Shown: positions 3,866 through 51,458 of the stretch, piece by piece
How positions within the stretch are numbered: the stretch's first letter is position 1
Layout of the letters: each line of letters opens with the position of its first letter
Assembly (NCBI GenBank): GCA_041657665.1
Contig: JBBABN010000001.1
Location: forward strand, 2,355 to 66,354
From: Minisyncoccota bacterium
Lineage (GTDB): Bacteria > Patescibacteriota > Minisyncoccia > Phycocordibacterales > Phycocordibacteraceae
Length of the DNA stretch: 64,000 nucleotides
Direction of reading: 5' to 3'
Made by a program: the position numbers and the translations under genes
The notes under the pieces: model-generated
What the model saw: the letters and a program-made list of their open reading frames with translations, nothing else
Database searches by the model: none
Told to the model about the DNA's origin: nothing

Positions 3866-3885
3866 ATCCTATATACTGAGGGTAT

Positions 3886-4590: not shown

Positions 4591-4658
4591 GCATTCGCAT
4601 TCCGACATCCGATGTCCTCGTACATTTGAACATCGGATGTCCATACCTATTGCATTTA

Positions 4659-4698
4659 AAGGTTCGACCTTGAGAATTCGGATTTAAGGTCGAACCTT
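4659..4698. terminator. Bidirectional hairpin between convergent genes (AAGGTTCGACCTT...AAGGTCGAACCTT)
   Basis: 13-bp perfect inverted repeat with a 14-nt loop, lying between the ends of convergent ORFs 3886..4590 (+) and 4709..7741 (-). Confidence 0.6.
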
Positions 4699-4708
4699 GT
4701 TGAATACC

Positions 4709-7700
4709 TCAACGGGCTGAGTTAATCGCCGCTCTAGTAAGCGGCCCGAAATATCCCACAGCCGGTGTGATGTTGTTCGCCTTCTGGAATCTGATAAGAG
4801 CGGCCTTGGTCAATGCACCAAATTTGGTTGTTTCATTTCCTGGTGAACCTGGACCGCTCTCCGCAAGAATGAAGCCATGGGTGTTAAGGAACTGTTGGAG
4901 TTTTTGTACATCAGTACCGGTGGTGTTTAGTTTCAGATCGCGAGCAAACCCGGTTTGTGAGCTTGTCGAACCCGTCGAGGGGGTGAAAGATGAAGTGGAA
5001 ACTGTTGAAGTTGTAATCGTTTCTCCCAAGAGAGCGGCTTGTACCTTCGCTATAGTATTGGCATCAACGCCGAAGGAAGCGAGGACAGCGAGAATGGAAG
5101 ATACTTGTACAGAAGAAAGGGGGCTTGCCCCGCGAAGCTCTCCTTCCGAGGAGAGCGAAGTGGGGGTAGTAGTGGCAACAACAGGAGTGACGCGGGGATA
5201 GGTGTGAGAGAACCCACAACCTATAGTGAAGGTCTGGGTGTTGGAGTTGGTACTGTTGTCATTGTTGTCGAGGGCCTTGATGTACCACGAGTGTGTATTA
5301 GAGCAAGAGATAGAGGTTGGAACAGAGACCGAGGTGTCGGAAGTGCTCCCGATAAGGGTGTCATCGATATAGAGCTCATAGGGAGCAAGACCTGATTCAG
5401 TGTCAGAAGAAGCGGTCCAAGAGAGGGTGCCTCCTTTCGAGATGCCGTCATTGTTAGCTGGGGCGGTTAGAGAGAAAGATGCGGGAGCGGTCGTGTCTTT
5501 GGTGAGGGCGAAGGTGTGGGTTGAATACCCGCCGACATAGGTGAAGGTGAGGGAGCCGTCAGCGTCGGACTTGCAGATGCCGTTGGTACATTGGCTGTTG
5601 TTGGTGATGGCGGTGGTAGAGGCAGAGGAGTCGAGGTTGAATGTGTAGTATGTGGAGGGGGTGAGATCGCCGATGGTATAGACGGTGCTGGTGGCGTGGG
5701 TGTTAAAGGCGGCGATACTGGAGGTTGCGGTCCACTGTTTGTTCTTGGTGCCGGATGTGAGCCAAGAATCAATGGTGATGTCCATATATTGCGAAGTGGA
5801 GGCGGTATAGAAGCCGTCCACGGGAGTGACGGAGAAGTTGGCAGCTGGAATGGTGGTGGCAGTGGTGGTGGCGACGAGAGCGCGATACTTGTTGTCGGAA
5901 TAGATGCGGATGGAACCGCTCGTTGGTACTGGAGTTGTTCCCACTGTGTATGGCGGTTGATATTCGTATGCGCCGATGTCTGGGGTGCCGTATATTGAGT
6001 TGCCGGCATAGTCGGTGGTTAATGAGACGTCAGTACCAGCATCAATCGCCGGAGAAAGATACGAGAGTTGAAAATCGGTGACAGCAGTATAATTACCTGT
6101 AGCATTTACAAAAAGAGGATCGGAATTATTACTGTTTAGTTCGTTGGCAGAATGGTAGGTTGCCCATGATGTGTTATTGCTATTATCATCTGTGTTATAA
6201 AATTTACTATCATCAAAAGGTTTGTATAAATTATAGTCAAATGTTGTATAAGATGAATGTCTGTTTAATATCTCTCGCGGCTTACCGTTTCCACCTAAAA
6301 TACCATTCTGTACTGTTAAATTACCGCTAGGTTTGTTGTAATAATTATTACCTCTAATCGATGCAGTTATTACTGTACTTTCTTTAAAAAGATCTCCAAC
6401 AGCATATCCATTTGACCAACCAATAGAATTATAAAAATAATTCGTGCCGTCGGAAACATCTCCAAATCCCTCATTATAATTATGATGAGCTATACAATAA
6501 TAACATTTTATATTTGTCGTAGAATCATGAGGCAAAAAACCCCCGCCATCAGATGTTTCGTTAACTGTTCCATTATAAGAGGCTTCACTATTCAAATATA
6601 TTATATCACTGGCTGATGCCGAAGAAAGGAATCCAATATTATTATTATTATTAGCCATACAATTATTATAAGTTATATTATACGATGTGCCTCTCGCAAC
6701 AAACCCGTTCATAGAATTATGATTCGCCGAAACACTATTATATGTAATGTCGTGGGTCGCTCCCATTAATTCAAAAGCACCATAGGCAGTAGAGTTGCTC
6801 ATACTGCTATCGTCTACCACAATATTTGATGAATCGGTAAAACTAAATCCTGCGCCGGATGATCCTGTGATATTACTAATGGTACCAGTAGCAACATTAT
6901 TTAAAGCAATTCCTGTTAATGTCGAATTAGTTATTGTTAAATTTAAGCCGGTATTTATAGAAATTAATGTCGATGTCGAATTGGTTATTGTTAAATTTGC
7001 AGCATTACTTATAAGTAAGTCGCCAGTATTAATAACTGAATTTTGTAAAGTTATATTATCATTGCCCGTACCAGTAAAACTCATAGCTTTTTTTGTTGGT
7101 CCGCTATTTGTTAGCACCACATTATCAATAACTATATTATTCAAAATACTGTCGGACCATATATTATATCCATAGCCCCCCATATCGCTGGTAATATTAT
7201 TAAATTTAATATTAGAGCCTGCCCCTATGAGTATTCCTATAGTCGAAACTGTTGTCCCTGTATATTGGCAAGAAAATCCTTGAACTATAATATTAGATTT
7301 GCCGTTGGTACTTATTAGATAGCCAGAAGCAACAACAATCGCAGGAGTTTCGTTCGGCACATTCGCATAGGTAATTTCAGTGTCAACGCCGGAACCTCCC
7401 GACGGAAGGATTAAAATTTCTGTGTAATTTCCACCTTGTGAACTGAAAAGAATTTGATCACCATCTCCAAAAGTTGCGAGTTTTACTTGAGCCATGTTCA
7501 AAGAGGTACCGACTGCGTTAGGGCTTGTTGCATTCGCTTTATTAGCCGCGGTCACCGTCCCATCTGCCCGCACATAATACGTCGTTGCACTCGCCTGCCC
7601 TATTCCAATAAACAAAAAACTTCCTGAAAGAATTAGAAAGAATGCAATGAAGCGAACATTTTTGTTGAAAAAATTGGGGCTATTTACTCTCTCTCTCTCT

Positions 7701-15702: not shown

Positions 15703-16635
15703 ATGTTGTGCGACACGGGTGGTATGCTATCCACTATGGAAGCAGAGACCGCGAAACGACAATTTCTCGAATATATCGAGATAGAGCGCGGACGCGCAGT
15801 GAAGACCATCGAGAATTACGACCATTACCTGACTCGCTTCTTCATACAGATGAAAATAAAGGGCGTGAAGGACATCAGCGAGCAGAATGTTCGCGAGTTT
15901 CGCCTCTGGCTGAACCGTCAGGCCGGCACCAATAATGCCTCTATGAAGCGCCGAACCCAGAATTACTATATGATTGCGCTCCGCGCCTTCTTGAAGTTCC
16001 TGCGGAAGCGCGATATTCCCGCAATTTCTCCCGAGAAGATAGAGCTCGCGAAGCTCCCCGAGCGCGAGCTCGACCTTATATCCCCCACCGAGCTTGCTCG
16101 ACTTCTACAGGCTGCTGACGGACCTGAAGAAAAGGATTTACGCGATAAAGCGATATTAGAGCTCTTCTTCTCTACTGGCCTACGTGTTTCTGAGCTCTGT
16201 GCGCTTAATAATGACCTCGATTTGTCCCAAGATTCCTTCTCAGTACGCGGGAAAGGCGAGAAAGTGCGGGTCGTCTTCCTCTCAGAAGCTGCTAAAAAAT
16301 CTGTTGCTGCTTATCTGAAAGCGCGAAAGGATATGGCGGAAGCACTTTTCGTGAATGTTTCAGCTGGCAATTCAATTCCTTCTCGCCTCACGCCACGCTC
16401 GGTAGAACGAATCATTAAAAAATGCGCCGCTAAAGCTGGTATTACGAAGAAGATGACCCCACATGTCCTCCGTCATGTCTTCGCCACCGACCTACTCAAT
16501 AACGGCGCGGATATTCGCTCAGTCCAACAACTCCTCGGCCACGCTTCTATTAACACCACTCAAATTTATACCCACATCACCGACGCGCACCTGCGCGAAG
16601 TGCATAAGAAGTATCACAGCAAATCCAGTAACTGA
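15703..16635 (+). CDS. xerC: Tyrosine site-specific recombinase (XerC/XerD-like)
   Basis: C-terminal catalytic box HVLRHVFATDLLNNGADIRSVQQLLGHASINTTQIYTH (R..HxxR..Y). An N-terminal SAM-like core-binding domain is present. The exact start (15703 or a downstream ATG) is uncertain. Confidence 0.85.
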   Translation: MLCDTGGMLSTMEAETAKRQFLEYIEIERGRAVKTIENYDHYLTRFFIQMKIKGVKDISEQNVREFRLWLNRQAGTNNASMKRRTQNYYMIALRAFLKFLRKRDIPAISPEKIELAKLPERELDLISPTELARLLQAADGPEEKDLRDKAILELFFSTGLRVSELCALNNDLDLSQDSFSVRGKGEKVRVVFLSEAAKKSVAAYLKARKDMAEALFVNVSAGNSIPSRLTPRSVERIIKKCAAKAGITKKMTPHVLRHVFATDLLNNGADIRSVQQLLGHASINTTQIYTHITDAHLREVHKKYHSKSSN

Positions 16636-26763: not shown

Positions 26764-28152
26764 TTATTCGTCTTTCGCTGTATCGCGGTCTTCTTCTGCA
26801 TCAGCGACCGTCTCGTCGCTTGCCGGCAGTTCTGTCGATTCTTCTTCGGCAGGAAGTTCGGTAAGCTCTACCACTTCTTCAGTAATGATTTCATCACTTT
26901 CAGTCGGCATAACACCCGCCAATTCAGCAGGATCGGTTTCATCCTCTTTTCTAGTAGGATCCTCATCAACAACCGCGACTGATTCGCCATCAGATCCAGC
27001 GACTTCAGTGCCGCCAGTAGAAATAATATCAATATTCCATCCGGTAAGCTTCGCAGCGAGACGCACATTCTGACCACCGCGACCAATCGCGAGTGATTGT
27101 TCATCTTCAGATACTGTAACAGTCGCGCGATGACCTTCTTCATCAAGCACTACTTCAACCGGTGTCGCAGGGGAGAGCGCCTCTCTCACAAATTCTTTTG
27201 CATCATCATTCCATTCGATAATATCAATACGTTCTCCTCCAAGCTCACTCATCACAGTAGAAACGCGCACACCACGCTGACCGACGAGAGAACCGACCGG
27301 GTCGACATGTGACTCTTTCGAAGCAAGCGCTATCTTAGTACGACTGCCTGGCTCGCGCGCCAGCGCCTTCACCTCTATCGCACCACTCGCAAGCTCGGGT
27401 GCCTCAAGCTCGAAAAGCTTCACGACAAACTTCGGATGCGCACGGGAAAGTCGCAGATATACACCGCGGAATCCCTCGTCTACCGCGTAGAGATACGCGC
27501 GAATACGCTCACCCATACGATACCGCTCTCCTGGAATCTGCTCTTCATAAGGGATAATGCCGGTCGTACGCCCAAGATCGACGAAAATCGCTCCGCGTTC
27601 CATCCGCTGGACGATACCCGACACAATCTGACCTTTTCGCTCACCGAATTCCTCCATCATCGAGGTTTTTTCTGCTTCGCGCACCTTCTGAATAACTACC
27701 TGCTTGGCGGTTTGTGCTGCTATACGACCAAAATCGTCTTGCGGTTCGAGAGGGAAGACGATCTGTTCGCCCACAACAGCGTCACGCTTCATAAGCTTCG
27801 CATTAGCGATAAGGATATGCTTTTCAGAGTCGAAACGTGGCAATTCACCCTCAGCAAGCTGTTCTTCCTCATTATGAAATGAGTGCATGTGGTGACTATG
27901 CTCTTCAGGAATTTCTTCTCCAGGAGCAGGAAAACGAACGGTTGTGTCGTCCACAATCGTTTTAATCTGTTCGAAGGAGATAGTACCAGTATTAAGGTCG
28001 AGTTTGGCGTGTACCACTTGCCCGCGCTTACCGTATTCGCGCTTATATGCGGTCGCCATCGCACTCTCGATAGCCTCAATCATCGTTTCGCGATTAATGC
28101 CCCTGTCTTCGAACTCTCCGAGCACTGCATTGATGGTTTTTAAGTCAATCAT
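26764..28152 (-). CDS. nusA: Transcription termination/antitermination factor NusA
   Basis: N-terminal NusA domain (MIDLKTINAVLGEFEDRGINRETMIEAIE), S1 domain, two KH domains, and an acidic C-terminal tail. Confidence 0.9.
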   Translation of the reverse strand: MIDLKTINAVLGEFEDRGINRETMIEAIESAMATAYKREYGKRGQVVHAKLDLNTGTISFEQIKTIVDDTTVRFPAPGEEIPEEHSHHMHSFHNEEEQLAEGELPRFDSEKHILIANAKLMKRDAVVGEQIVFPLEPQDDFGRIAAQTAKQVVIQKVREAEKTSMMEEFGERKGQIVSGIVQRMERGAIFVDLGRTTGIIPYEEQIPGERYRMGERIRAYLYAVDEGFRGVYLRLSRAHPKFVVKLFELEAPELASGAIEVKALAREPGSRTKIALASKESHVDPVGSLVGQRGVRVSTVMSELGGERIDIIEWNDDAKEFVREALSPATPVEVVLDEEGHRATVTVSEDEQSLAIGRGGQNVRLAAKLTGWNIDIISTGGTEVAGSDGESVAVVDEDPTRKEDETDPAELAGVMPTESDEIITEEVVELTELPAEEESTELPASDETVADAEEDRDTAKDE

Positions 28153-28322
28153 ATGGAATATGTATGTCGCACGTTTTTAATATGTCTAACACCTATTCTA
28201 ACATTTCTAATAAAAATGCCCGCATCGCGGACATTTCAGATGATGTAAAGATACCAGATTCTTTTTTATGCGTCAACACAAAAAGAAAAGAGCCACCTAA
28301 TTGGTGACTCTATGCCCTTACG

Positions 28323-28382
28323 GTCTCGCCTCGACTTATTTTATTCGTCCGAGATCCCCGCTTACGCCTTGGGTTAGGCGGC
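28323..28382 (-). repeat. R element copy 1 (partial, ~60 nt) at the 3' end of small ORF 28395..28673
   Basis: GTCTCGCCTCGACTTATTTTATTCGTCCGAGATCCCCGCTTACGCCTTGGGTTAGGCGG is near-identical to the 5' two-thirds of copy 2 (28730..28815). Confidence 0.8.
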
Positions 28383-28394
28383 TGTGTGAAGATG

Positions 28395-28673
28395 TTAATT
28401 GCTCTTCTTCCTTGAGAGAAAGAGAAAGACAATTAAACCAACCAAGAAGTATACCGCCATGGACAAGTGGAGCGAAAGAGCCTCCGACCATGGCCATACC
28501 ATCCCAAACATCAGGACGGTGCAGTTTGTTCCTTGAATGTGCACCTTCATGTACAACGCCCCCACGAGAAAAATGCAGAAAGAGTAGAGAGCTACGAAAA
28601 TACTGGAGACCAGCACTTTCACGAAGATCTCTAATCCTTTGACAAACTTCTCGGCAGCTTTTTCAGATGTCAT
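28395..28673 (-). CDS. Small hydrophobic membrane protein (92 aa), unknown function. First downstream member of the small-ORF array.
   Basis: ORF with an AAGGAG RBS ~8 nt before its ATG (reverse complement of 28674-28690). Two predicted TM helices. Confidence 0.45.
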   Translation of the reverse strand: MTSEKAAEKFVKGLEIFVKVLVSSIFVALYSFCIFLVGALYMKVHIQGTNCTVLMFGMVWPWSEALSLHLSMAVYFLVGLIVFLFLSRKKSN

Positions 28674-28729
28674 TTCACTTCTCCTTTTTTATTGTGAGAG
28701 AACATTTTTTCTGTTTTCATTTCCCTGAG

Positions 28730-28815
28730 GTCTCGCCTCGGCTTATTTTATTCGTCCGAGATCCCCGCTCACGCCTTGGGTTAGGCGGGTTTCGCTACCC
28801 CGGCTCGAGCGAGAC
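28730..28815 (-). repeat. R element copy 2 (86 nt), a structured repeat overlapping the stop of ORF 28795..29097
   Basis: Terminal 7-bp pairing GTCTCGC/GCGAGAC encloses two hairpins (CTCGG..CCGAG and CCCGC..GCGGG). The ORF C-terminus LEPG* is encoded by the conserved GGCTCGAGC segment. Confidence 0.8.
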
Positions 28816-29097
28816 GACCTTTGATCTGGAAATCAAAAGCCGATCGGCCCCACAGCCTATGCGGCGGCCGTCGATCCACTCCGAGTGAGAGTGCATCACC
28901 CAGAGCACATTTCCATGGCTCTGAATCTCTACCACTCTTGGATCATTTGGATCGAGCTGGAGGGTCTTCACCTCGTCCTCATAGACATCAATGTCCCCTC
29001 TCCAGTACTTCCAAGTGCTCGGCCAGCGAGTCCAATTAATCTTTCTTTCTGTCCCATCCGTAAAACGGATGAACATTGGTCTTCCTGGACAATCCAT
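28795..29097 (-). CDS. Hypothetical 100-aa protein, middle ORF of the array
   Basis: Perfect SD AAGGAG 8 nt upstream of the ATG at 29097. The C-terminus is encoded inside R copy 2. No recognisable domain. Confidence 0.55.
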   Translation of the reverse strand: MDCPGRPMFIRFTDGTERKINWTRWPSTWKYWRGDIDVYEDEVKTLQLDPNDPRVVEIQSHGNVLWVMHSHSEWIDGRRIGCGADRLLISRSKVVSLEPG

Positions 29098-29123
29098 TTT
29101 ATTACTCCTTCAAAAAAGAACAT

Positions 29124-29212
29124 TCTGTTTCGTCCTGTGCGATTTGGCATTTCCAAACTGCCGGACTTGGACTTTTCAGTCCTCATCAGTCCCGACCCAA
29201 TCGGGAGACAGA
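29124..29212 (-). ncRNA. Hammerhead-ribozyme-like element A (type III topology, atypical expanded stem II)
   Basis: Minus-strand sense: CUCUGUC^UCCCGA-UUGGG-UCGGGA CUGAUGA GGACUG...[~45-nt insert]...CACAGGAC GAAAC AGA. Present are the GUC cleavage triplet, a 6-bp stem I hairpin, the CUGAUGA and GAAA core, and a 5-bp stem III (UCUGU/ACAGA). Stem II would need tandem G-A pairs plus a large insertion. Confidence 0.55.
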
Positions 29213-29333
29213 GAGAGGTTTTGTCCGGACCTCTCAAACCGAGCGTGTTCCTTCAAAGAAGGATGTCCCAATCACCTCAGATTGCCTGGGTTATGACGAA
29301 CCCGACAAACCTATGATTGCGTGATTTTCAATA

Positions 29334-29474
29334 TCAAGTCGTCATCTTGATATTCCGGATTATCCCCACGATCGAGGGGACGCCTAAGGGTGTGCGCTTA
29401 CCCAACGGAACAGGCTTATCTATTTCCATCTCTCGAGAGATAGGAACACATAACCCTGTTCCGTTTTTGTCCAT
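29334..29474 (-). CDS. Possible 46-aa ORF (MDKNGTGLCVPISREMEIDKPVPLGKRTPLGVPSIVGIIRNIKMTT) downstream of hammerhead B
   Basis: Internal ATG of track ORF 29334..29519. The upstream 45 nt of that track ORF are the hammerhead core and so unlikely to be coding. Weak RBS. Confidence 0.3.
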   Translation of the reverse strand: MDKNGTGLCVPISREMEIDKPVPLGKRTPLGVPSIVGIIRNIKMTT

Positions 29475-29494
29475 ATTTAAAAGAACAATTCTTT

Positions 29495-29546
29495 GCTGTT
29501 TCGTCCTTTTTGGACTCATCAGGGGAGAGAAATATCTCCCGACAGC
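29495..29546 (-). ncRNA. Type III hammerhead ribozyme (minimal, all core positions canonical)
   Basis: Minus-strand sense: GCUGUC^GGGAGA-UAUUUC-UCUCCC CUGAUGA GUCC-AAAAA-GGAC GAAAC AGC. Stem III GCUGU/ACAGC with A15.1-U16.1 and C17 (GUC, cleavage between + coordinates 29541/29540). Stem I 6 bp, stem II 4 bp (G10.1-C11.1). Invariant C3 U4 G5 A6 U7 G8 A9 and G12 A13 A14 are all present. Confidence 0.85.
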
Positions 29547-29696
29547 AATCCGTATCGTGGATTAGTCGAATCCCGTATTCGTTGGATTAATCGGATGGTA
29601 GTCATTATCGGCGTTGACCTTACCGTGCCAATCATTACTGACTGGCAGGTTTGCAGTTATTTCCATCACCTTACCTGCAAACCGTTTTACCCTGCG

Positions 29697-29780
29697 GTCT
29701 CGCTCCAACTTATGGATTCATTGAAGTCCCCGCTTACGCATGGGTTGAAGGCGGCTTCCGCTAAGCCATGGGCTCGAGCT
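29697..29780 (-). repeat. R element copy 3 (diverged, ~70% identity) overlapping the stop of ORF 29761..30171
   Basis: GGTCTCGCTCC...CCCCGCTTACGCATGGGTT..GGCGG...GGGCTCGAGC aligns with copies 1/2. The ORF C-terminus LEPMA* is encoded in the conserved GGCTCGAGC block. The hairpin-1 stem has a different sequence but preserves pairing (ACTT/AAGT versus CTCGG/CCGAG). Confidence 0.7.
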
Positions 29781-30171
29781 TCTTCGTCTTGAAGACGATC
29801 TTCTCGAGCACCTCGTAGTGGGAGAATTTAAGCAGGTCGCGCCCGCTCTCATCCTTCCCGACCACAATGGCCCGACCGGACTCATCACGCTCAAATTCCG
29901 CGCGAATGAGAACGGCCCCGAGGTTGCACTGCCGGTCCACCAACCTTATTAAGGTCGGGAACGGCGCCTGCGCCTCGACAGCGACGACTTTGCCATCGGT
30001 CTCGGACTCAACCTTCTGGATGAGTTCCTTGACCGAAGTGACAGCGTCGTCGCCGTAGCGGATGTCATCGGTTACGACCTTAAGGTCGCTTCCGAAGACG
30101 CCCTTCAGGAACGCCTCACGGGCGGCGTCGAGCGGATGGCGGGTGATTCTGACAAGGACTTTCATTTGCAC
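29761..30171 (-). CDS. Hypothetical 136-aa protein, first ORF of the array
   Basis: ORF starting ~120 nt downstream of the divergent promoter region 30172..30330. No recognisable motif. The C-terminus lies inside R copy 3. Confidence 0.5.
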   Translation of the reverse strand: MQMKVLVRITRHPLDAAREAFLKGVFGSDLKVVTDDIRYGDDAVTSVKELIQKVESETDGKVVAVEAQAPFPTLIRLVDRQCNLGAVLIRAEFERDESGRAIVVGKDESGRDLLKFSHYEVLEKIVFKTKKLEPMA

Positions 30172-30262
30172 TCCTTCTGCGGCCTTTGTCGCGAATAAAA
30201 GAACATTGATAACTTTTTATCAGTAGTGCTATGATAGCGCATTGGTATCGTTTGTCAAGTTT

Positions 30263-30317
30263 TTTATCATACCTTTTTATGATAAAAGCTTGACAGAAAT
30301 ATCACATAGAATATACT
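30263..30317 (+). promoter_or_regulatory. Sigma70-like promoter (TTGACA 30290-30295, 16-nt spacer, TATACT 30312-30317) preceded by the palindrome TTTTATCATA-N6-TATGATAAAA (30263..30288)
   Basis: Consensus -35/-10 hexamers 13 nt upstream of the ATG at 30331. A perfect 10-bp inverted repeat overlaps the -35 region, a likely operator (possibly for the TrmB-like product itself). Confidence 0.55.
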
Positions 30318-30330
30318 CCTTTTATCACAT

Positions 30331-31104
30331 ATGAAACAAAATCATGATAAAAAGGGGAGTGAGCGACTTCTTAAAAATCTAGAGAAGATCGGTTTAACCG
30401 AGAAAGAAGCCAGAATATATGTCTATTTGGTGGGGAGAACCATAGAAGTTGGGAGCTCCAAGATTGTTGCTGCTACTGGTTTACACGGCCAGTATGTCTA
30501 TACCGCTCTTGGGTCCCTTGAAGGTAAGGGGTTGGTAAAGCATGTCATTAAAAATAACCGTAAAAAGTGGAGTGCTAACCCTCCTGCGCGCATAGAATCG
30601 CTTATTGACGAAAAAAGAATCGTGGCAAATGAAGCACGAGACATGCTTGAAAAGATGTTCAGCCACCAGTATGAGCAAGAGTTCGAAGTGTACCAAGGCG
30701 AAGACCAATTTGCCGCGAATGAACTTCAAATAATTGAAGAGGCGGGAAAAGATAGCTTCATAGATATAATTGGGGGCGGCGGAGACAAATTTAAAGAAAC
30801 TCTTGGGGAAAGTCATGAATTTTACGATAAAAAGAGTATCGAAAAAAATATTGCGGTCAGATATATAGGAACGGGCGAGCAGCAAGATTATTTTGAAAGA
30901 GTGAAAAAGTCACGCGTGAATTTCGATTTCAGAATTATGCCGGAGTTTAACAATAGTAGTGTAAACACACTAATTTATCCTGATCAGATACAGTTTCAAA
31001 TATATGGTGATCCTGTTTTGGTATTTAAAATAAGAAATGAACAGATTGCGCGCGATTATAGAACATTTTTTGATTCCCTTTGGAATCTTTGTGGAGAACA
31101 GTAA
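30331..31104 (+). CDS. TrmB-family HTH transcriptional regulator
   Basis: N-terminus LEKIGLTEKEARIYVYLVGRT...SKIVAATGLHGQYVYTALGSLEGKGLV matches the TrmB winged-helix. It sits immediately upstream of the type IV pilus operon. Confidence 0.65.
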   Translation: MKQNHDKKGSERLLKNLEKIGLTEKEARIYVYLVGRTIEVGSSKIVAATGLHGQYVYTALGSLEGKGLVKHVIKNNRKKWSANPPARIESLIDEKRIVANEARDMLEKMFSHQYEQEFEVYQGEDQFAANELQIIEEAGKDSFIDIIGGGGDKFKETLGESHEFYDKKSIEKNIAVRYIGTGEQQDYFERVKKSRVNFDFRIMPEFNNSSVNTLIYPDQIQFQIYGDPVLVFKIRNEQIARDYRTFFDSLWNLCGEQ

Positions 31105-46077: not shown

Positions 46078-46716
46078 ATGACAAACACACGCACACCAGG
46101 AGCAACCCAGCAGTTCGTCCCCGTGAAGGAGATTCGGAATGGCACTATCATTTTGAAAGATGGTGGGTATCGCGGCATACTGATCTGTTCCTCGATTAAC
46201 TTCGGACTGAAGTCGGCTGACGAACAGCATGCTATTACGCTTGGTTTCCAAAATTTCCTCAACACCCTTGATTTCTCTATTCAGATAGTTATAAATTCGC
46301 GGAAAATGGATCTACGTCCCTATCTCACCCTTCTTGCAGAGAAAGCATCAGAACAAAAGACCGAACTTATGCGAGTCCAATTGCGAGAATATGTTGAGTT
46401 TGTGCGTTCTTTCGCTGATCAGGCAAACATTATGACCAAATCGTTCTATATTGTTGTCCCGTATGCACCACATGCTTCTGCAGCTGGTGCGATAAGTTTC
46501 TTGCGACACGAAAATACTACAGAGAAGAACGCTTCTGAGAAAACTTCTTTTAATGAAGATCGGGCACAGCTCGAACAACGGCTCTCACTCGTTGCTGGTG
46601 GCCTTGCTGGTACTGGAGTGCGCGCAGTGCCACTCGGCACCGAAGAAGTTATCGAACTTCTGTATCGTTCATTTAATCCGGGAGAGCTCGAGAACCCGAT
46701 TCGTCTCGATAATTAA
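46078..46716 (+). CDS. Probable VirB4/TraE N-terminal domain, encoded as a separate ORF
   Basis: FVPVKEIRNGTIILKDGGYRGILICSSINFGLKSADEQ... resembles the N-terminal CagE_TrbE_VirB-type region of Gram-positive VirB4 homologues (inference from motif pattern). It is in the same frame as the downstream VirB4 ATPase ORF and separated only by TAA plus 2 codons. Confidence 0.45.
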   Translation: MTNTRTPGATQQFVPVKEIRNGTIILKDGGYRGILICSSINFGLKSADEQHAITLGFQNFLNTLDFSIQIVINSRKMDLRPYLTLLAEKASEQKTELMRVQLREYVEFVRSFADQANIMTKSFYIVVPYAPHASAAGAISFLRHENTTEKNASEKTSFNEDRAQLEQRLSLVAGGLAGTGVRAVPLGTEEVIELLYRSFNPGELENPIRLDN

Positions 46717-46722
46717 ATTACT

Positions 46723-48549
46723 ATGGCACTTCTTGACTTCCTTAGCAGAAAAAACAAACAAGATTCTGAGAATTCGGCCGTCGTTCCTGTTCTCCCGAAA
46801 GATATTTATCGAGAAGGTTCGCTTAATCTGGCTGATACCATCGCCCCGACCGCGTTGAAGATTAGTTCGCGCGAAATCGAACTTGGAGAAAAGTTTGTTC
46901 GTTCTTTTTATACCATCTCCTATCCACGCTTCCTCTCTGACAGCTGGTTCTCTCCCGTCGTCAATCTCGACAAGATACTCGATGCTTCGATATTTATTCA
47001 TCCTGTCGATACTGAGCAGGCCCTCCGAGGTTTCCAAAAGAAAGTTGCTGAGGTTCAGAGTCAGATTAATGAACGAGAATCGAAAGGTCTTGTGCGCGAC
47101 CCTCTCCTCGATACGGCATATCAAGATCTCGAGAGTTTGCGTAATGATCTCCAACAAGCACAAGAAAAACTTTTTGATGTCGGCCTCTATCTCGCACTCT
47201 ATGGTGATTCAAAAGAAGATATCGATAAAACCGAAGGTGATATTCGCGGTATTCTCGACGCGAAGCTGGTCTATACGAAGCCAGCGCTCTTTCAGCAAGA
47301 GCAGGGATTCCGTTCTTGTCTTCCGCTTGGAACCGACGAACTTCTCGTCAATTCGAAATTAAATTCTTCACCCCTTTCTTCATTCTTCCCATTTGTTTCA
47401 TTCGATCTCACCAGCGACCGAGGAATCTTATATGGAATAAACAGACATAATTCATCTCTCATTCTCTTCGATCGTTTCTCGCTCGAGAACTACAACTCAG
47501 TCGTATTCGCGAAGTCTGGTTCAGGGAAAAGCTATGCGACGAAGCTCGAAATCCTACGTTCGCTGATGTTCGGTACTGACGTTATTGTTATCGATCCTGA
47601 GCGCGAATATGACCAACTCGCCGAAGCGACTGGCGGACGCGTCTTCCATATCTCACTTTCTTCTGAACATCACATCAATCCATTTGATCTGCCACCAGTA
47701 AAAGAAGGGGAGGACCCGAAAGATATTCTCCGCTCCAACATCATCGCACTCGTCGGACTCTTCCGTATTATGTTGAGTGGTCTTTCTCCTGAAGAGGACG
47801 CTATTGTCGACCGTGCTATTGGCGAGACATATGCACTGAAAGATATTACTGGTGACGCTAATTTCACCGGAGCAGAACCGCCTCTCCTCTCTGATTTTGA
47901 ACAGGTGCTTTCTGGTATGGAAGGGAGCGAATCCTTGGTTGAACGCCTTTCTAAATATACGCGTGGTTCCTGGGCCGGATTCCTCGACCAGCCAACCAAT
48001 ATCGACCTCACCCAACAATTCGAGGTCTTCTCAGTGCGTGATATGGAGGATGAGCTGAAGCCGGTAGCGATGTATATCATCACTCATTACATCTGGAATG
48101 CAGTGCGCCACGAGATGAAGAAACGTCTGCTTATTATCGACGAGGCGTGGTGGATGATGAAGAGCGAAGACACAGCTTCCTTCCTCTATTCGGTCGCGAA
48201 ACGTGGACGTAAGTATTATCTGGGCGTCTGCACGATTACTCAAGATGTGGAGGACTTCCTTAAGAGCCCATACGGACGACCTATTCTCGCGAACTCTTCA
48301 CTCCAATTACTTCTGAAACAATCGCCAACCACTATTGAGGTCCTGCAGCAAACATTTAATCTCACGGACGAAGAAAAATATCTTCTTCTTGAAGCTGGAG
48401 TGGGGGAGGGACTCTTCTTCGCCGGACTGAAACATGTCGCCATTAAGATAGTCGCGAGTTATACCGAAGACCAGATTATTACCTCCGATCCTTCGCAGCT
48501 TCTCGCAATAAAAGAAGAGAAGGCACGGTATGCCACCGAAAAGAAATAA
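46723..48549 (+). CDS. virB4: Type IV secretion system ATPase VirB4/TrbE/CagE family (ATPase core)
   Basis: Walker A VFAKSGSGKSYAT, ...VIVIDPEREY..., Walker B LLIIDEAWWMM, and a C-terminal conserved region. Confidence 0.8.
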   Translation: MALLDFLSRKNKQDSENSAVVPVLPKDIYREGSLNLADTIAPTALKISSREIELGEKFVRSFYTISYPRFLSDSWFSPVVNLDKILDASIFIHPVDTEQALRGFQKKVAEVQSQINERESKGLVRDPLLDTAYQDLESLRNDLQQAQEKLFDVGLYLALYGDSKEDIDKTEGDIRGILDAKLVYTKPALFQQEQGFRSCLPLGTDELLVNSKLNSSPLSSFFPFVSFDLTSDRGILYGINRHNSSLILFDRFSLENYNSVVFAKSGSGKSYATKLEILRSLMFGTDVIVIDPEREYDQLAEATGGRVFHISLSSEHHINPFDLPPVKEGEDPKDILRSNIIALVGLFRIMLSGLSPEEDAIVDRAIGETYALKDITGDANFTGAEPPLLSDFEQVLSGMEGSESLVERLSKYTRGSWAGFLDQPTNIDLTQQFEVFSVRDMEDELKPVAMYIITHYIWNAVRHEMKKRLLIIDEAWWMMKSEDTASFLYSVAKRGRKYYLGVCTITQDVEDFLKSPYGRPILANSSLQLLLKQSPTTIEVLQQTFNLTDEEKYLLLEAGVGEGLFFAGLKHVAIKIVASYTEDQIITSDPSQLLAIKEEKARYATEKK

Positions 48550-49222
48550 TCTGCCGCGGCCAGCCCGCCGCGGAGTGACAAATTCGGAGCCGCCTCCAGT
48601 GATGACCTGGCCAAAGGCGTCACCCGTTCTTATTATTGCCGGAATTTTTGATTTGCTCCGCATCATGTTTGAACAGTTTTGGTTCTTCGGGCCAGCAATC
48701 GCCGCCACATATTGCACTGCAAAAGTAAGTGGGATGGTAGGCACAACGATAGGATCAACTATATGTGGCGCTGGTGCTAGCGTGATTGGTACTGTCGGCT
48801 CTCCTGCGATTATAGCGTTTGGTGTTGTTATGGCGATGGCGGTCGGACTCTTCGGCTGGATGACGATCGGACTCGTACTTATTATGACTAATAGCCGAAT
48901 ATTTAAAGAGAATGAGGGTCAGATACTTTGGTTTGTCGGAAGTTTGCTTCTAAGTGAGACACCTATTATCGGCACCATCCCCGGACTCACTGGCGCAACA
49001 ATAAAGATGTACCATACCCAAATAAAAAAAGATAACGAGAATGTGGCGAAATATAATAAAGAGCAAGCTGCACAGCAGGTGCAAGAGCAGAACCAAAGAA
49101 ATGCAGAACTTATGCAGGAGCAGTACTCAGCTCAATTAGAACAAGCCGAACAAGAAGAGGAGAATGAAAATGAAGAAACAAATGAGGGAGAAATCCCCGA
49201 GAATGTGCGTAGTGCGGCATAA
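48530..49222 (+). CDS. Polytopic membrane protein with a Q/E-rich coiled-coil tail (T4SS-cluster component, possibly VirB6-like)
   Basis: 230 aa with ~4 TM helices. Overlaps the VirB4 stop. Assignment by position only. Confidence 0.4.
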   Translation: MPPKRNNLPRPARRGVTNSEPPPVMTWPKASPVLIIAGIFDLLRIMFEQFWFFGPAIAATYCTAKVSGMVGTTIGSTICGAGASVIGTVGSPAIIAFGVVMAMAVGLFGWMTIGLVLIMTNSRIFKENEGQILWFVGSLLLSETPIIGTIPGLTGATIKMYHTQIKKDNENVAKYNKEQAAQQVQEQNQRNAELMQEQYSAQLEQAEQEEENENEETNEGEIPENVRSAA

Positions 49223-49251
49223 TTGTCTCGTGTAGGCGCTATACTACTGGT

Positions 49252-50238
49252 ATGCGTTTTGGATTTTTAATCACCCTTTCATTAATCTTTCTTCTTCCTC
49301 TCGCAGTTTCTGCGCAGGCTATCAGTAATGAAGAGGCATTTACTATGTCGGTAAACCCTCAATATCCTGCACCGTATAGCCAAGCAGTACTTTCACTCCT
49401 TTCTTCTTCACTTGATCTTAATAATGCAATTATGACTGTTTCTGTTGCTGGAAAAGAAGTCTATAAAGGAAGTGTTCGCCCAACTGCTATTCCGGTAGGA
49501 GGGGCAGGAAGCGTTGTGAGTGCAAAAGTAACAGTAACTTCAGGAGGAGCTTCCTACAACCAAACAATCTCTATTCAACCTCAAGATGTCGTTCTTGTCG
49601 CGGAACCAATATCATCATCACCTCCTCTCTACCTAGGGAAATCGCTTGTCCCGCTTGAAGGAGATGTGCGCGTCGTCGCTATGGCGAACCTACGAGGAAC
49701 AAAAGGAGAGATAATTGACACAACAACTCTCTCATACTCTTGGACTGTGGATGACACACAAATCGCCAACGCTTCAGGTATTGGCAAACAGTCAATTACC
49801 GTTGCTTCACCATTCCAGTATCGAACACGGAAGGTCTCAGTCGCAGTAATGAGCCAAGATGGAAATCTTGTTGGAGGGGCTTCGCTCTCGCTCTCTGCTC
49901 TCGATCCGTCAGTACGCCTTTATAAAAATGACCCATTGCTCGGCATTCTCTATGATCACGCACTTTCTAGCAGTTATGCCATCAGCAATGCAGAAGAAAC
50001 ACTCTATGCAGCCCCATTTTCTCTCCCGACGACCAATGGCGCTCCGCTTATTCAATGGTTCTTAAGCGGCACGATAGCACAAACAGGTAATTCAATAACT
50101 CTACGACCAACAGGAAAAGGGCAGGGCAATGCTTCTCTGTCACTGACGGCTTCTTCTGGAGGATCAACAAAGGCGACAGAGAACCTCTCACTCTCTTTTG
50201 GAACCGCATCAAGTGGTTTTAGCTTATTTGGCCTATGA
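49252..50238 (+). CDS. Secreted protein (signal peptide MRFGFLITLSLIFLLPLAVSAQA), T4SS-cluster component
   Basis: Clear Sec signal peptide with an AxA site. 328 aa, S/T-rich, beta-type. Confidence 0.45.
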   Translation: MRFGFLITLSLIFLLPLAVSAQAISNEEAFTMSVNPQYPAPYSQAVLSLLSSSLDLNNAIMTVSVAGKEVYKGSVRPTAIPVGGAGSVVSAKVTVTSGGASYNQTISIQPQDVVLVAEPISSSPPLYLGKSLVPLEGDVRVVAMANLRGTKGEIIDTTTLSYSWTVDDTQIANASGIGKQSITVASPFQYRTRKVSVAVMSQDGNLVGGASLSLSALDPSVRLYKNDPLLGILYDHALSSSYAISNAEETLYAAPFSLPTTNGAPLIQWFLSGTIAQTGNSITLRPTGKGQGNASLSLTASSGGSTKATENLSLSFGTASSGFSLFGL

Positions 50239-51458
50239 AAAAAATATTCTTTATATCAGTTTTCTTTCTCTTCTTTGGTTTAGCGCCGCATGTCTTTGCC
50301 GCATGTTCTGACTATTCCAATTTCACTCCAATACAGAGGACAACGGGTCAAGGATGTGTAGAAATACTTGGTCCTGGATGGGTAATTGTTGATACCACCT
50401 GCTTGGGGACTGCTCTGCCAAGCGACAAAAATACTGTTTGTGGTTCAACAGCTCAAGCAGCACCAGCAAACCCAACACCGAATAGTCCTACCGGGCAAAC
50501 TCAACCATCAGCAACTCCGACAGGCAATAATAATGCTTCGCAAGGATTTACAGCACTCGCGCCTATTCCTGGACTTACTGACACAAACGGCGCAGTCGTG
50601 AATTCAAAATCGCTCTCAGATTTTTTTAATAATCTCTATAAATATCTTATCGGCATCGCCGCAATACTTGCAGTTATCCAGATTATTCGTGCAGGTTTTG
50701 ATATTGCGACAAACAAAGATAATGTCAGTGTCCTTATGAGTAGTAAAAGTAAAATTTCACAAGCAATTTATGGTCTCGTACTCGTCCTCTCGCCCGTGCT
50801 TGTTTTCTCCATCATCAATCCGAGCATTTTGAATCTTTCACTTAATCTTCCCCCACTTAATACAGCGCCAGAGACACAGGTTGGGAACGGAGGTAATAGC
50901 ACAGGAGTCACTGCAACTGATACTACAACTGGATGCACAACAAGTGGCACAAACGGTATTCTCCAAATTGCAACATGTCCTTCTAATGATGCTGTTGAGA
51001 AGGAAATTGACCGTTGCGGTAGTAATTCTGGAAAGATTTCTATAATTTCTAAAAATAGCCTAACGAATGGAACAATTGTTTCTGCAATGCTTATGTGCAA
51101 ATGGTCAAATAAGTATGTATTTATAGATACAAGAGATCAGGGAATCATCGGGTGGCTCACCTCACAATTTAATACAATCAATGATATTCAGCCGTTAGCT
51201 ATTACGACTGATAATCCTAACAATGGCAATTCTGCAATTCAATTTATGGAAACCTGTTCAAATTCTGGATTATCAACATGTATTAGTGCTACTGCTTTCA
51301 CTAATCCTGTAGATTGTACACCGACACCCAAAACACCTTTGCCTGGCAAAGCTAGAAAATGTGGTAATTTAACCTTGACTTGCCGAGATTATGGGACGAT
51401 ACATACTTTTGTAGGTAGTTTGTGTTCTAAAAGTCCTAGTTGGACGCCATTTCAATAA
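50235..51458 (+). CDS. Secreted/membrane protein with signal peptide and central TM hairpin (pilin/VirB2-like segment), Cys-rich C-terminal domain
   Basis: Signal peptide MKKIFFISVFFLFFGLAPHVFA. The two adjacent hydrophobic helices LIGIAAILAVIQII... and ...GLVLVLSPVLVFSII recall the VirB2/TrbC hairpin. Confidence 0.4.
   Translation: MKKIFFISVFFLFFGLAPHVFAACSDYSNFTPIQRTTGQGCVEILGPGWVIVDTTCLGTALPSDKNTVCGSTAQAAPANPTPNSPTGQTQPSATPTGNNNASQGFTALAPIPGLTDTNGAVVNSKSLSDFFNNLYKYLIGIAAILAVIQIIRAGFDIATNKDNVSVLMSSKSKISQAIYGLVLVLSPVLVFSIINPSILNLSLNLPPLNTAPETQVGNGGNSTGVTATDTTTGCTTSGTNGILQIATCPSNDAVEKEIDRCGSNSGKISIISKNSLTNGTIVSAMLMCKWSNKYVFIDTRDQGIIGWLTSQFNTINDIQPLAITTDNPNNGNSAIQFMETCSNSGLSTCISATAFTNPVDCTPTPKTPLPGKARKCGNLTLTCRDYGTIHTFVGSLCSKSPSWTPFQ

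What the first reader, a model, noticed from the sequence alone, without database searches (positions are those of the whole stretch)
28323..29780. R element: ~85-nt structured repeat at the 3' ends of the array ORFs, with apparent covariation
Three copies lie at 28323..28382 (partial), 28730..28815 and 29697..29780. Copy 2 folds in the sense orientation as an outer 7-bp helix (GUCUCGC/GCGAGAC) enclosing two hairpins. In copy 3 the first hairpin has a different stem sequence but retains pairing (ACUU/AAGU versus CUCGG/CCGAG). That is consistent with selection on RNA structure rather than on sequence. The elements overlap stop codons, have no U-tail, and so are not classical intrinsic terminators. 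Candidate roles are a 3' stability or processing element, a protein-binding site, or the 3' partner of the upstream ribozyme-processing scheme. The integron-attC-like GTTAGGC core seen in copies 1 and 2 is not conserved in copy 3. I therefore do not favour a cassette-recombination site.
Basis: seen in the sequence. Interest (0 to 1): 0.6.

Follow-up and report, generated by a model that had tools for sequence, protein, structure and literature searches.

The report
Structured 3'-UTR RNA beside hammerhead ribozymes
The repeat is real: it is an uncatalogued, roughly 60-base folded RNA element that sits just after stop codons in a ribozyme-punctuated operon of tiny groundwater-type (CPR) bacteria, its fold is backed by compensatory mutations in 11 lineages, and its function is still untested.

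Summary
Three R copies exist on the minus (mRNA-sense) strand at 29746..29688, 28781..28722 and 28374..28314. No other copy occurs in the 64-kb window.

With a pattern scan and a covariance model I found 11 more distinct copies, giving 11 lineages in all. At least 8 of these are annotated as, or resemble, Paceibacteria or other Patescibacteria.

It is one irregular hairpin: P1a – RCRUGA bulge – P1b (GYGG/CCRC) – internal loop GGA/CGAGA – P2 (U·G at its base) – variable apex.
- 90% of cells pair, against 68% in shuffles and 28–44% in slid controls.
- The middle pair of P1b switches C-G to U-A in 6 of 14 sequences.
- Five of six P2 pairs covary.
- G·U pairs outnumber A·C mismatches 16 to 4, so the sense strand is the one that folds.

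R starts 12–66 nt after a stop codon. Most often this is the stop of a conserved 134-aa gene or of a Csx3/P-loop gene. R is followed by a type III hammerhead (44–147 nt downstream) or by a terminator.

It has no Rfam match. It lacks attC core sites, and no integron integrase is present.

Best reading: a protein-recognised 3'-terminal RNA domain of ribozyme- or terminator-delimited mRNAs. The function is inferred, not shown.

The parts
29688..29746 (-). R3, full motif, starting 15 nt after the UAG of ORF134. P1a 29746-29742 pairs with 29692-29688. Bulge AU+GCGUAA 29741-29734. P1b GCGG 29733-29730 pairs with CCGC 29697-29694. Internal loop GGA 29729-29727 opposite CGAGA 29702-29698. P2 CUUCAA 29726-29721 pairs with UUGGAG 29708-29703. 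Apex UGAAUCCAUAAG 29720-29709.
   Evidence: Covariance-model hit, 78.2 bits, E 4e-22. Sequence read. Close relatives carry a 44-nt deletion of the core but keep both flanks.
28722..28781 (-). R2, full motif, starting 14 nt after the UAG of ORF100. P1b GCGG 28768-28765 pairs with CCUC 28730-27 (one mismatch). GGA 28764-62 opposite CGAGA 28735-31. P2 UCUCGG 28761-56 pairs with CCGAGG 28741-36. Apex is 14 nt.
   Evidence: Covariance-model hit, 44.7 bits, E 2e-11. The core is identical to the R1 of the Kaiserbacteria relatives. The 5' flank (28782-28815) carries the ORF134-type tail CTCGAGCC..TAGCGAAA. The whole ORF100+R2 segment is absent in relatives.
28314..28374 (-). R1, full motif, starting 21 nt after the UAA of ORF92 and abutting a terminator. 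GCGUAA 28367-62. P1b GCGG 28361-58 pairs with CCGU 28323-20. GGA 28357-55 opposite CGAGA 28328-24. P2 28354-49 pairs with 28334-29.
   Evidence: Covariance-model hit, 45.6 bits, E 9e-12. Conserved in all Kaiserbacteria relatives L014-L021 and L036.
28280..28311 (-). Intrinsic terminator-like hairpin plus U-tract that closes the array transcript, 3 nt after R1.
   Evidence: 9-bp stem followed by TTTCTTTTTG.
29493..29548 (-). Type III hammerhead ribozyme. Its predicted cleavage site is about 147 nt downstream of R3.
   Evidence: Rfam RF00008, 52.3 bits, above the gathering score.
29122..29214 (-). Second type III hammerhead with a long stem II, immediately upstream of ORF100.
   Evidence: Rfam RF00008, 24.4 bits, E 0.033 in the local scan, with all core boxes present.
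29761..30165 (-). ORF134, first gene of the array. It belongs to a conserved Paceibacteria family with no Pfam match, and R3 lies in its 3' UTR.
   Evidence: 83 homologues. The C-terminus ..RRLEP is native to the family. AlphaFold2 pLDDT 95, Rossmann-like fold.
28795..29097 (-). ORF100, an orphan gene whose 3' UTR is R2. Together with R2 it forms a roughly 395-nt segment present in this genome only.
   Evidence: One search found no homologue other than itself. One search shows the indel against relatives.
28395..28673 (-). ORF92, a small hydrophobic protein whose 3' UTR is R1.
   Evidence: found only in close relatives.
30231..30258 (-). Sigma-70-like promoter of the array transcript (TTGACA, 16 nt, TATCAT), divergent from the TrmB-like regulator gene at 30331-31104.
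   Evidence: 11 of 12 matches. (TrmB Pfam hit, 4e-9).

Best explanation
R is a cis-acting structured RNA, not a DNA site. It is transcribed as part of the 3' UTR or intercistronic spacer of a hammerhead-punctuated operon.

It folds into one irregular hairpin of about 60 nt. Two covarying helices (P1b and P2) and a weaker outer helix (P1a) present invariant unpaired nucleotides. These are a 5' bulge RCRUGA opposite a single A, and an asymmetric internal loop GGA/CGAGA. That loop has the sequence signature of a kink-turn: a 3-nt bulge followed by tandem G·A and A·G.

R always sits between a stop codon and the point where the transcript ends. That end is either a hammerhead self-cleavage site 44-147 nt downstream or an intrinsic terminator. 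R therefore becomes the 3'-terminal domain of the mature upstream mRNA.

I propose that it works as a specific protein-binding platform that sets the fate of that mRNA after processing, through stability, decay or translation. The binder could be a protein of its own module (the ORF134 protein or the Csx3/P-loop protein) or an L7Ae-type kink-turn binder.

Shown: the copies, the strand, the fold with covariation, the position relative to stop codons, hammerheads and terminators, and the gene neighbourhood.

Inferred: transcription, the kink-turn geometry, protein binding, and the effect on mRNA fate.
For: **Copies and rarity**
- Three copies in the window against 0.01 expected by chance.
- 14 distinct sequences in 11 lineages were found by the pattern scan and the covariance model.

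**Fold**
- 89.9% of cells pair, against 67.9% in shuffles (0 of 500 shuffles reach the observed value) and 28-44% when partners are slid.
- The P1b pair C-G switches to U-A in 6 of 14 distinct sequences.
- Five of six P2 pairs change on both sides.
- RNAalifold recovers P1b and P2 on its own.
- Single-sequence minimum-free-energy folds of L014, L009 and L038 give the same helices.

**Strand**
- 16 G·U cells against 4 A·C cells. The U·G pair at the base of P2 is kept in 10 of 14 sequences.
- Every copy is co-oriented with the upstream ORF.

**Position**
- R starts 12-66 nt after a stop codon in the 13 copies with an identifiable upstream ORF; for L041 no upstream ORF was identified.
- A type III hammerhead follows on the same strand for window R3, L037, L038, L046 (twice) and L050.
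- A terminator follows R1.

**Module association**
- R follows an ORF134-family gene in 5 lineages and a Csx3/P-loop gene in 2.

**Core versus apex**
- The apex is replaceable: a GAAA tetraloop in L049/L051 and an unrelated 10-nt loop in L050. The bulge and internal loop are invariant.
- This pattern fits a recognition surface rather than a mere stable hairpin.
Against: - There are no expression, probing or binding data.
- The 5' strand of the internal loop departs from GGA in 2 lineages (GAA in L009, AAAA in L038). This weakens the A·G pair of a canonical kink-turn.
- The covariation-supported register of P1b leaves one G unopposed, which a textbook kink-turn does not have.
- R is optional. 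ORF134 lineages L043, L044 and L048 have the hammerhead without R, and carry a different spacer structure.
- The Kaiserbacteria relatives have deleted the core of R3.
- R2 is followed by neither a hammerhead nor a terminator, only by the next cistron.
- Outer helix P1a pairs in only 75% of cells, and my ad hoc partner-swap control for it was not significant.
- The alignment used for pair counts was fitted to the model, which favours the structure.
Confidence: 0.45

Rival explanations
1. R is a passive structural element. It would act as a stable hairpin that blocks 3'-to-5' exonucleases, or as an insulator that keeps the translated ORF from interfering with folding of the downstream hammerhead. 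No specific trans-acting partner would be needed.
For: Its position is always at the 3' end of a cistron and upstream of a hammerhead or terminator. Lineages without R have another structure in the same place, so any structure may do. R starts just beyond the reach of a terminating ribosome (12-21 nt after the stop codon in 7 copies).
Against: A passive hairpin does not need about 20 invariant unpaired nucleotides (RCRUGA, GGA, CGAGA, A) kept across 11 lineages while the helices and apex vary freely. In L046 and L050 a separate GC-rich hairpin already lies between R and the cleavage site.
Confidence: 0.2
2. R is a new catalytic or ligand-sensing RNA. It could be a self-cleaving or ligating ribozyme, or an aptamer, working together with the hammerhead. 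For example it might define the mRNA 3' end or sense a nucleotide signal linked to the neighbouring Csx3 ring-nuclease gene.
For: It lives in the kind of hammerhead-rich small-gene loci where twister-sister, pistol and hatchet were found (PMC5737381, introduction). It is small, with highly conserved junction nucleotides and covarying helices. It has no match to any Rfam family.
Against: The architecture is a single rod-like hairpin. I found no pseudoknot or multi-helix junction. The two conserved loops are only 4 bp apart, and the apex is dispensable. The distance to the hammerhead is variable (44-147 nt), so it is not an integrated allosteric ribozyme. A terminator directly follows R1, which is odd for a self-cleaver.
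Confidence: 0.12
3. R is a DNA-level recombination site marking the 3' boundary of mobile gene cassettes. It would be functionally like an integron attC site folded from single-stranded DNA.
For: It occurs in an array of small ORFs, each followed by R. The ORF100+R2 segment (about 395 nt, ending exactly at the 3' end of R2) is present here and absent in relatives about 95% identical in the flanks. R2 is chimeric: an ORF134-type 5' flank joined to an R1-type core. The hairpin is imperfect, with bulges.
Against: There are no conserved RYYYAAC/GTTRRRY cores. GTTAGGC lies outside the conserved motif and only in 2 copies. The window holds no integron integrase, only a Xer-like recombinase 12 kb away. 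The 16 G·U pairs, including a conserved U·G, are poor in DNA and lie on the ORF-sense strand. Most R copies sit in a fixed, vertically inherited operon (ORF134 - R - hammerhead - csx3), not between shuffled cassettes. There is only one insertion polymorphism, and it is equally explained by homologous recombination between repeats.
Confidence: 0.08
4. R is a selfish or neutral repeat, such as a MITE- or REP-like element or a gene-conversion relic, with no function for the host.
For: There is a 44-nt presence/absence difference of the R3 core between close relatives. The three copies lie close together, and two of them are 97% identical.
Against: There are no terminal inverted repeats or target duplications at the indel. 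Only 3 copies occur in 64 kb, all in one operon. There are none in viral contigs. Compensatory substitutions across distant lineages indicate purifying selection on the fold.
Confidence: 0.05

Closest known systems
Kink-turn protein-binding RNA modules (e.g. Kt-7, box C/D, L7Ae/YbxF/YlxQ targets)
   Same: The internal loop has the signature of a helix, a 3-nt bulge (CGA), then G-A on one strand facing G-A on the other. It is flanked by two covarying helices, and the -1 pair covaries (U·G, C-G, U-A).
   Different: One extra unopposed G appears in the covariation-supported register. The 2n position is A in two lineages. There is a second conserved bulge (RCRUGA) that no kink-turn has. No binding protein has been identified. 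The resemblance comes from sequence and from my recollection of the consensus, not from a structural test.
Orphan structured RNA motifs found around bacterial self-cleaving ribozymes or specific gene classes (drum, skipping-rope, DUF3800 RNAs; Weinberg et al. 2017, PMC5737381)
   Same: A small, highly conserved motif with covariation and no known function. It is associated with a particular gene neighbourhood and with hammerhead-containing loci, and is often followed by a terminator.
   Different: No sequence or structure match to any of them in Rfam 15. The host clade is different (CPR/Paceibacteria). R has a fixed position in the 3' UTR directly after stop codons.
Integron attC sites / DUF1874-type repeated intergenic motifs
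   Same: A repeated imperfect hairpin after consecutive small ORFs. One ORF+R unit behaves as an insertion.
   Different: No inverse core sites. Conserved loop nucleotides instead of conserved ends. Folding on the sense strand with G·U pairs. No integron integrase.
Hammerhead-punctuated operons of bacteria and phages (Perreault et al. 2011, PMC3088659)
   Same: The context is the same: type III hammerheads between cistrons of one transcript.
   Different: Those descriptions concern the ribozyme only. As far as my searches show, no conserved partner element between the stop codon and the ribozyme has been described.

Membership tests
Integron attC site | Inverse core sites R'' (RYYYAAC) and R' (GTTRRRY) at the two ends of the element | tested here: not met
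   GCCTAAC/GTTAGGC occurs once, 5' of the conserved motif, in copies 1-2 only. It is absent in copy 3 and in all other lineages.
Integron attC site | Integron integrase (IntI) at the head of the array | tested here: not met
   Pfam scan of 45 of the 58 listed ORFs of at least 150 aa, covering the non-overlapping candidates. The only tyrosine recombinase (15703-16635) scores as XerA/C/D, and scores 137 bits against the integron-integrase model, whose cut-off is 265.
Integron attC site | Sequence variable except for the cores, with the recombinogenic fold on the bottom strand | tested here: not met
   About 20 invariant internal nucleotides. G·U pairs outnumber A·C mismatches 16 to 4 on the ORF-sense strand.
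Intrinsic (Rho-independent) terminator | GC-rich hairpin immediately followed by a U-tract | tested here: not met
   The terminator scan finds none at R2 or R3. The only minus-strand terminator (28311..28280) is a separate hairpin after R1.
Known self-cleaving ribozyme classes (hammerhead, twister, twister-sister, pistol, hatchet, hairpin, HDV-like) | Match to the family covariance model | tested here: not met
   cmscan against Rfam 15 at E up to 10 over 28100-30400, and at E up to 0.5 or 0.05 over 12 related loci. There are no hits on R, only the neighbouring hammerheads.
Known self-cleaving ribozyme classes | Site-specific self-cleavage in vitro | not testable with these tools
   Needs transcription and cleavage assays.
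Kink-turn | Three-nucleotide bulge followed by tandem sheared G·A/A·G pairs between a canonical and a non-canonical helix | tested here: inconclusive
   CGA-GA is invariant on the 3' strand. GA lies on the 5' strand in 12 of 14 sequences, and AA in L009 and L038. The register of P1b leaves one extra G. Geometry and L7Ae binding cannot be tested here.
REP/MITE-type dispersed repeat | Many dispersed copies, with terminal inverted repeats or target-site duplications | tested here: not met
   Three copies in 64 kb, all in one operon. No TIR or TSD at the R3 indel.
Protein-coding repeat | Conserved reading frame through the element in relatives | tested here: not met
   The motif lies after stop codons in 13 of the 14 copies; for L041 no upstream ORF was identified. 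The apex differs by 1-10 nt indels, and substitutions are compensatory in helices.

The most novel reading that the evidence does not exclude
R could be the RNA half of a previously unrecognised ribonucleoprotein or signalling module of CPR bacteria. Hammerhead cleavage would release an R-containing RNA end bearing a 2',3'-cyclic phosphate. That end would then be read by the co-encoded ORF134 protein (Rossmann-like, with weak CARF or MID resemblance) or by the Csx3/P-loop protein. Alternatively, R could itself be a new class of small catalytic or ligand-sensing RNA acting with the hammerhead to define mRNA 3' ends.
Probability: 0.12. Interest if true: 0.85.

Novelty: new member of a known kind. 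Interest (0 to 1): 0.55.

Why it matters
The biological role of hammerhead ribozymes in bacterial operons is still unclear. In this case a second conserved RNA element is placed in a fixed way between the stop codon and the ribozyme. It recurs next to a conserved ORF134–Csx3 gene pair.

This gives a concrete handle on what happens to the upstream cleavage product. Candidate protein partners are encoded in cis and can be tested directly.

It also adds a well-supported structured RNA family from the candidate phyla radiation, a clade that is hardly represented in RNA family databases.

Tried and rejected
**Negative searches**
- Rfam at permissive thresholds gave nothing on R.
- Viral contigs gave no hits with a strict pattern. 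A loose pattern gave 14 chance hits with no stem complementarity.
- Homologues of ORF100 and ORF92, sought as a way to reach more R copies, do not exist beyond close relatives.
- Literature searches for hammerhead plus integron, CPR or gene arrays found no description of such an element.

**Readings rejected**
- A mini-hairpin GC-GURA-GC competes with P1b. It explains the U-A covariation at 15/69 less well, because only P1b accounts for the change on the 3' strand.
- My own first idea was that the 12-nt apex (YGAAW..AUAAG, reminiscent of a UAA/GAN motif) is a universal feature. L049/L051 (GAAA tetraloop) and L050 refute it.

**Inconclusive**
- The ad hoc test of P1a by swapping partners between sequences was not significant, because most copies share ACCC/GGG.
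Full report
**Context**

The window is a chromosomal segment of a Candidatus Paceibacterota (CPR/Patescibacteria) genome. The ORF134 protein is 100% identical to a protein that NCBI names as coming from a 'Candidatus Paceibacterota bacterium'. The window also carries dnaA, dnaN, ruvABC, nusA, clpP and type IV pilus genes.

The finding lies in a 2-kb accessory stretch between a TrmB-like regulator gene (30331-31104, +) and nusA (28152..26764, -). All features of this stretch are on the minus strand and form one predicted transcription unit, in this order:
- promoter-like site 30258..30231 (11 of 12 matches)
- ORF134 (30165..29761)
- R3
- type III hammerhead (29548..29493, 52 bits)
- about 280 nt of hairpin-rich non-coding sequence
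- a second hammerhead (29214..29122)
- ORF100 (29097..28795)
- R2
- ORF92 (28673..28395)
- R1
- terminator-like hairpin with a U-tract (28311..28280)

Yes. The direct repeats 28322-28381 and 28729-28788 are 97% identical over 60 nt. A third copy at 29687-29758 is 72-78% identical. A 20-nt core pattern finds exactly these three sites, against 0.01 expected by chance. A covariance model run without filters over all 64 kb finds only these three, at 78, 46 and 45 bits. The next hit scores 13 bits.

**More copies**

R has no counterpart in viral contigs.

An exact-pattern scan of metagenome contigs found seven loci holding five different sequences: L036, L037, L038 (same as L040), L039 (same as L042) and L041.

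I fetched loci through homologues of ORF134 and searched them with covariance model R1. This added copies in L001, L009, L014-L021, L046/L047 (two copies), L049/L051 and L050.

In total there are 14 distinct sequences from 11 lineages. At least eight of the lineages are annotated as, or clearly resemble, Paceibacteria or other Patescibacteria. No copy matches any Rfam 15 family, even at E up to 10.

**The fold**

Read on the ORF-sense strand, the conserved architecture is:

P1a (3-6 bp, sequence variable) – 0-3 nt – RCRUGA – P1b (GYGG) – GGA – P2 (5-7 bp, first pair U·G) – apex – P2' – CGAGA – P1b' (CCRC) – A – P1a'

Counted on the model-fitted alignment of the 14 distinct sequences:
- 89.9% of cells form standard pairs. 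Shuffles give 67.9% (0 of 500 reach the observed value) and slid partners give 28-44%.
- 11 of 15 pairs change on both sides.
- The middle pair of P1b is C-G in 7 sequences and U-A in 6.
- Five of six P2 pairs covary.

RNAalifold recovers P1b and P2 on its own. It also adds one apex-proximal pair (U·G 6, C-G 5). Single-sequence minimum-free-energy folds of L014, L009 and L038 give the same helices.

P1a is weaker. It pairs in 75% of cells, and my partner-swap control for it was not significant. It does, however, take clearly different sequences in L037 (GCUUC/GAAGC), L041 (CCCUAG/CUAGGG) and L039 (GCAC/GUGC).

One caveat applies to the pair counts. The alignment was fitted to the model, and several sequences are related, so the numbers lean towards the structure.

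The apex is not universal. It is commonly YGAAW-N2-3-AUAAG. It is a GAAA tetraloop in L049/L051 and an unrelated 10-nt loop in L050.

The invariant part is the bulge, the internal loop and P1b.

**Which strand, and RNA or DNA?**

There are 16 G·U cells against 4 A·C cells. A U·G pair at the base of P2 is kept in 10 of 14 sequences. On the opposite strand these would be A·C mismatches. Every copy is co-oriented with the ORF upstream of it. This points to the transcript. A single-stranded DNA form of the same strand cannot be excluded from sequence alone, but G·T-rich helices and conserved loop nucleotides fit it poorly.

The 'outer 7-bp helix GUCUCGC/GCGAGAC' exists only in copy 2. In the conserved fold, CGAGA is a loop strand and CC begins P1b.

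Copy 1 is complete. The 5' extension shared by copies 2 and 3 (GCTCGAGCC…TAG CGRAA) is the last codons of the ORF134 family. Members of this family end in ..RRLEP in many lineages. R2 has therefore carried an ORF134 tail along with it, and ORF100 ends in …SLEPG.

The conserved motif starts 14-21 nt after the stop codons in the window.

**Position and partners**

In the 13 copies with an identifiable upstream ORF, R starts 12-66 nt after the stop codon; for L041 no upstream ORF was identified.

It follows an ORF134-family gene in five lineages: the window, L009, L046/47, L049/51 and L050. It follows a 314-aa Csx3-plus-P-loop gene in two: L001 and L046/47 (Pfam Cas_csx3 1e-14; tblastn).

A TrmB-like regulator is divergent from the module in the window, in L046 and in L042.

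A type III hammerhead lies on the same strand 44-147 nt downstream of:
- R3 in the window
- R in L037 (29.8 bits)
- R in L038 (44.7 bits)
- both R copies of L046 (47.6 and 41.5 bits)
- R in L050 (46.3 bits)

In L046 and L050 a separate GC-rich hairpin sits between R and the cleavage site. Elsewhere R is followed by a terminator (R1) or, for R2, directly by the next cistron.

ORF134 lineages without R (L043, L044, L048) still have the hammerhead 38-42 nt after the stop codon, with a different conserved spacer structure. R is thus an optional module inserted between the stop codon and the ribozyme.

**Dynamics**

I compared the window with Kaiserbacteria relatives whose flanks are about 95% identical (L014-L021).
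- The window has an extra segment of about 395 nt (RBS, ORF100, R2) that ends exactly at the 3' end of R2.
- The relatives have lost 44 nt of the R3 core but keep both of its flanks.
- R1 is retained in all of them.
- R2's core is identical to the relatives' R1.

The repeats therefore recombine with one another, and R is dispensable in at least one position. This is one polymorphism only. It does not establish site-specific recombination.

**Mechanism**

A type III hammerhead cleaves near its own 5' end. After cleavage, the upstream mRNA ends a few tens of nucleotides past R with a 2',3'-cyclic phosphate. With a terminator, the same is true of the primary 3' end. R is therefore the 3'-terminal domain of the mature upstream message.

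About 20 unpaired nucleotides are invariant while the helices and apex vary. This argues for specific recognition rather than plain stability.

The GGA/CGAGA loop matches the kink-turn signature: helix, 3-nt bulge, tandem G·A and A·G, helix. This comes from my own knowledge of the consensus and is an inference. There are two blemishes. One G is unopposed in the covariation-supported register, and A replaces G at one position in L009 and L038.

I therefore commit to this reading: a protein-binding 3'-UTR platform that sets the fate of the ribozyme- or terminator-delimited mRNA. Confidence is 0.45 for that function and about 0.9 for 'structured RNA on the sense strand'.

The rivals are:
- a passive stabiliser or insulator (0.2)
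- a new catalytic or ligand-sensing RNA (0.12)
- an attC-like DNA site (0.08)
- a selfish repeat (0.05)

**Comparison with known systems**

It is not an attC site. There are no inverse cores and no IntI. The only recombinase is Xer-like, scoring 250 bits on the XerA model against 137 bits on the integron-integrase model, whose cut-off is 265.

It is not a terminator, and it is not any Rfam ribozyme or motif.

It is nearest in kind to the orphan conserved RNAs found near bacterial ribozymes and specific gene classes (PMC5737381). In local anatomy it is nearest to kink-turn protein-binding modules. Hammerhead-punctuated operons are known (PMC3088659). I found no description of a conserved partner element placed between the stop codon and the ribozyme.

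**Verdict**

This is a real, strand-specific RNA motif supported by covariation. It is new as a family, and its function is untested. Interest is moderate to fairly high (0.55).

Noticed in passing
window 29215-29492 (-), bracketed by hammerheads 29548..29493 and 29214..29122: A non-coding segment of about 280 nt made of several hairpins, including a palindrome with 31-nt arms at 29404-29465. It lies between two type III hammerheads. It is about 97% conserved in the Kaiserbacteria relatives, with one U-A to C-G compensatory change in the long hairpin. Double cleavage would release it with 5'-OH and 2',3'-cyclic-phosphate ends, so it is a candidate processed or circularisable ncRNA.
   Followed up: partly
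window 30197-30207, 29476-29486, 29112-29122, 28697-28707 (-); L046 4576-4590 and 5872-5886; L050 4566-4576; also L049, L051, L009, L042: A 'GUUCUUU' box (AAUGUUCUUUU / AGUUCUUUGAAAG) recurs 25-60 nt upstream of almost every start codon in these modules. It lies directly 3' of each hammerhead and also in the 5' UTR of ORF134, which has no ribozyme. Its role is unknown.
   Followed up: no
[not shown]
   Followed up: partly
L043 912-960, L044 4403-4445, L048 4406-4450: ORF134 lineages without R carry a different conserved element between the stop codon and the hammerhead: CCAGUUUGAAAGGUCUGGA…AAAACCUUUC, directly before the CUGUC cleavage site. It looks like a hairpin whose loop pairs with the strand next to the ribozyme.
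   Followed up: no
L038+L040 (merged 5341 nt): hammerheads at 1832-1886 and 3028-3082, R at 2887-2946, der at 3743-5200: A second, unrelated CPR-like genome has a hammerhead - ORF180 - R - hammerhead - structured spacer - small ORF array inserted next to der (EngA) and pth. The two hammerheads are almost identical over about 50 nt, while their flanks differ.
   Followed up: partly
L046 5833-5880: The hammerhead after the csx3 gene has CUGAAGAG instead of CUGAUGAG in its core. It may be an inactive or variant ribozyme.
   Followed up: no
window 46723-48549 and neighbours 46078-52654: A TraG/VirD4-like P-loop protein is followed by several ORFs with no Pfam match. This may be a conjugative or type IV secretion-like island close to dnaA. 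L049 and L051 have TrwB/TraG genes just upstream of their ORF134 module.
   Followed up: no
L014 versus L015, about 5960-6060 (upstream region and N-terminus of the ORF92 homologue): Two otherwise near-identical Kaiserbacteria contigs differ in the 5' UTR and first codons of the ORF92 homologue (92 versus 106 aa). This part of the array appears to be a recombination hotspot.
   Followed up: no
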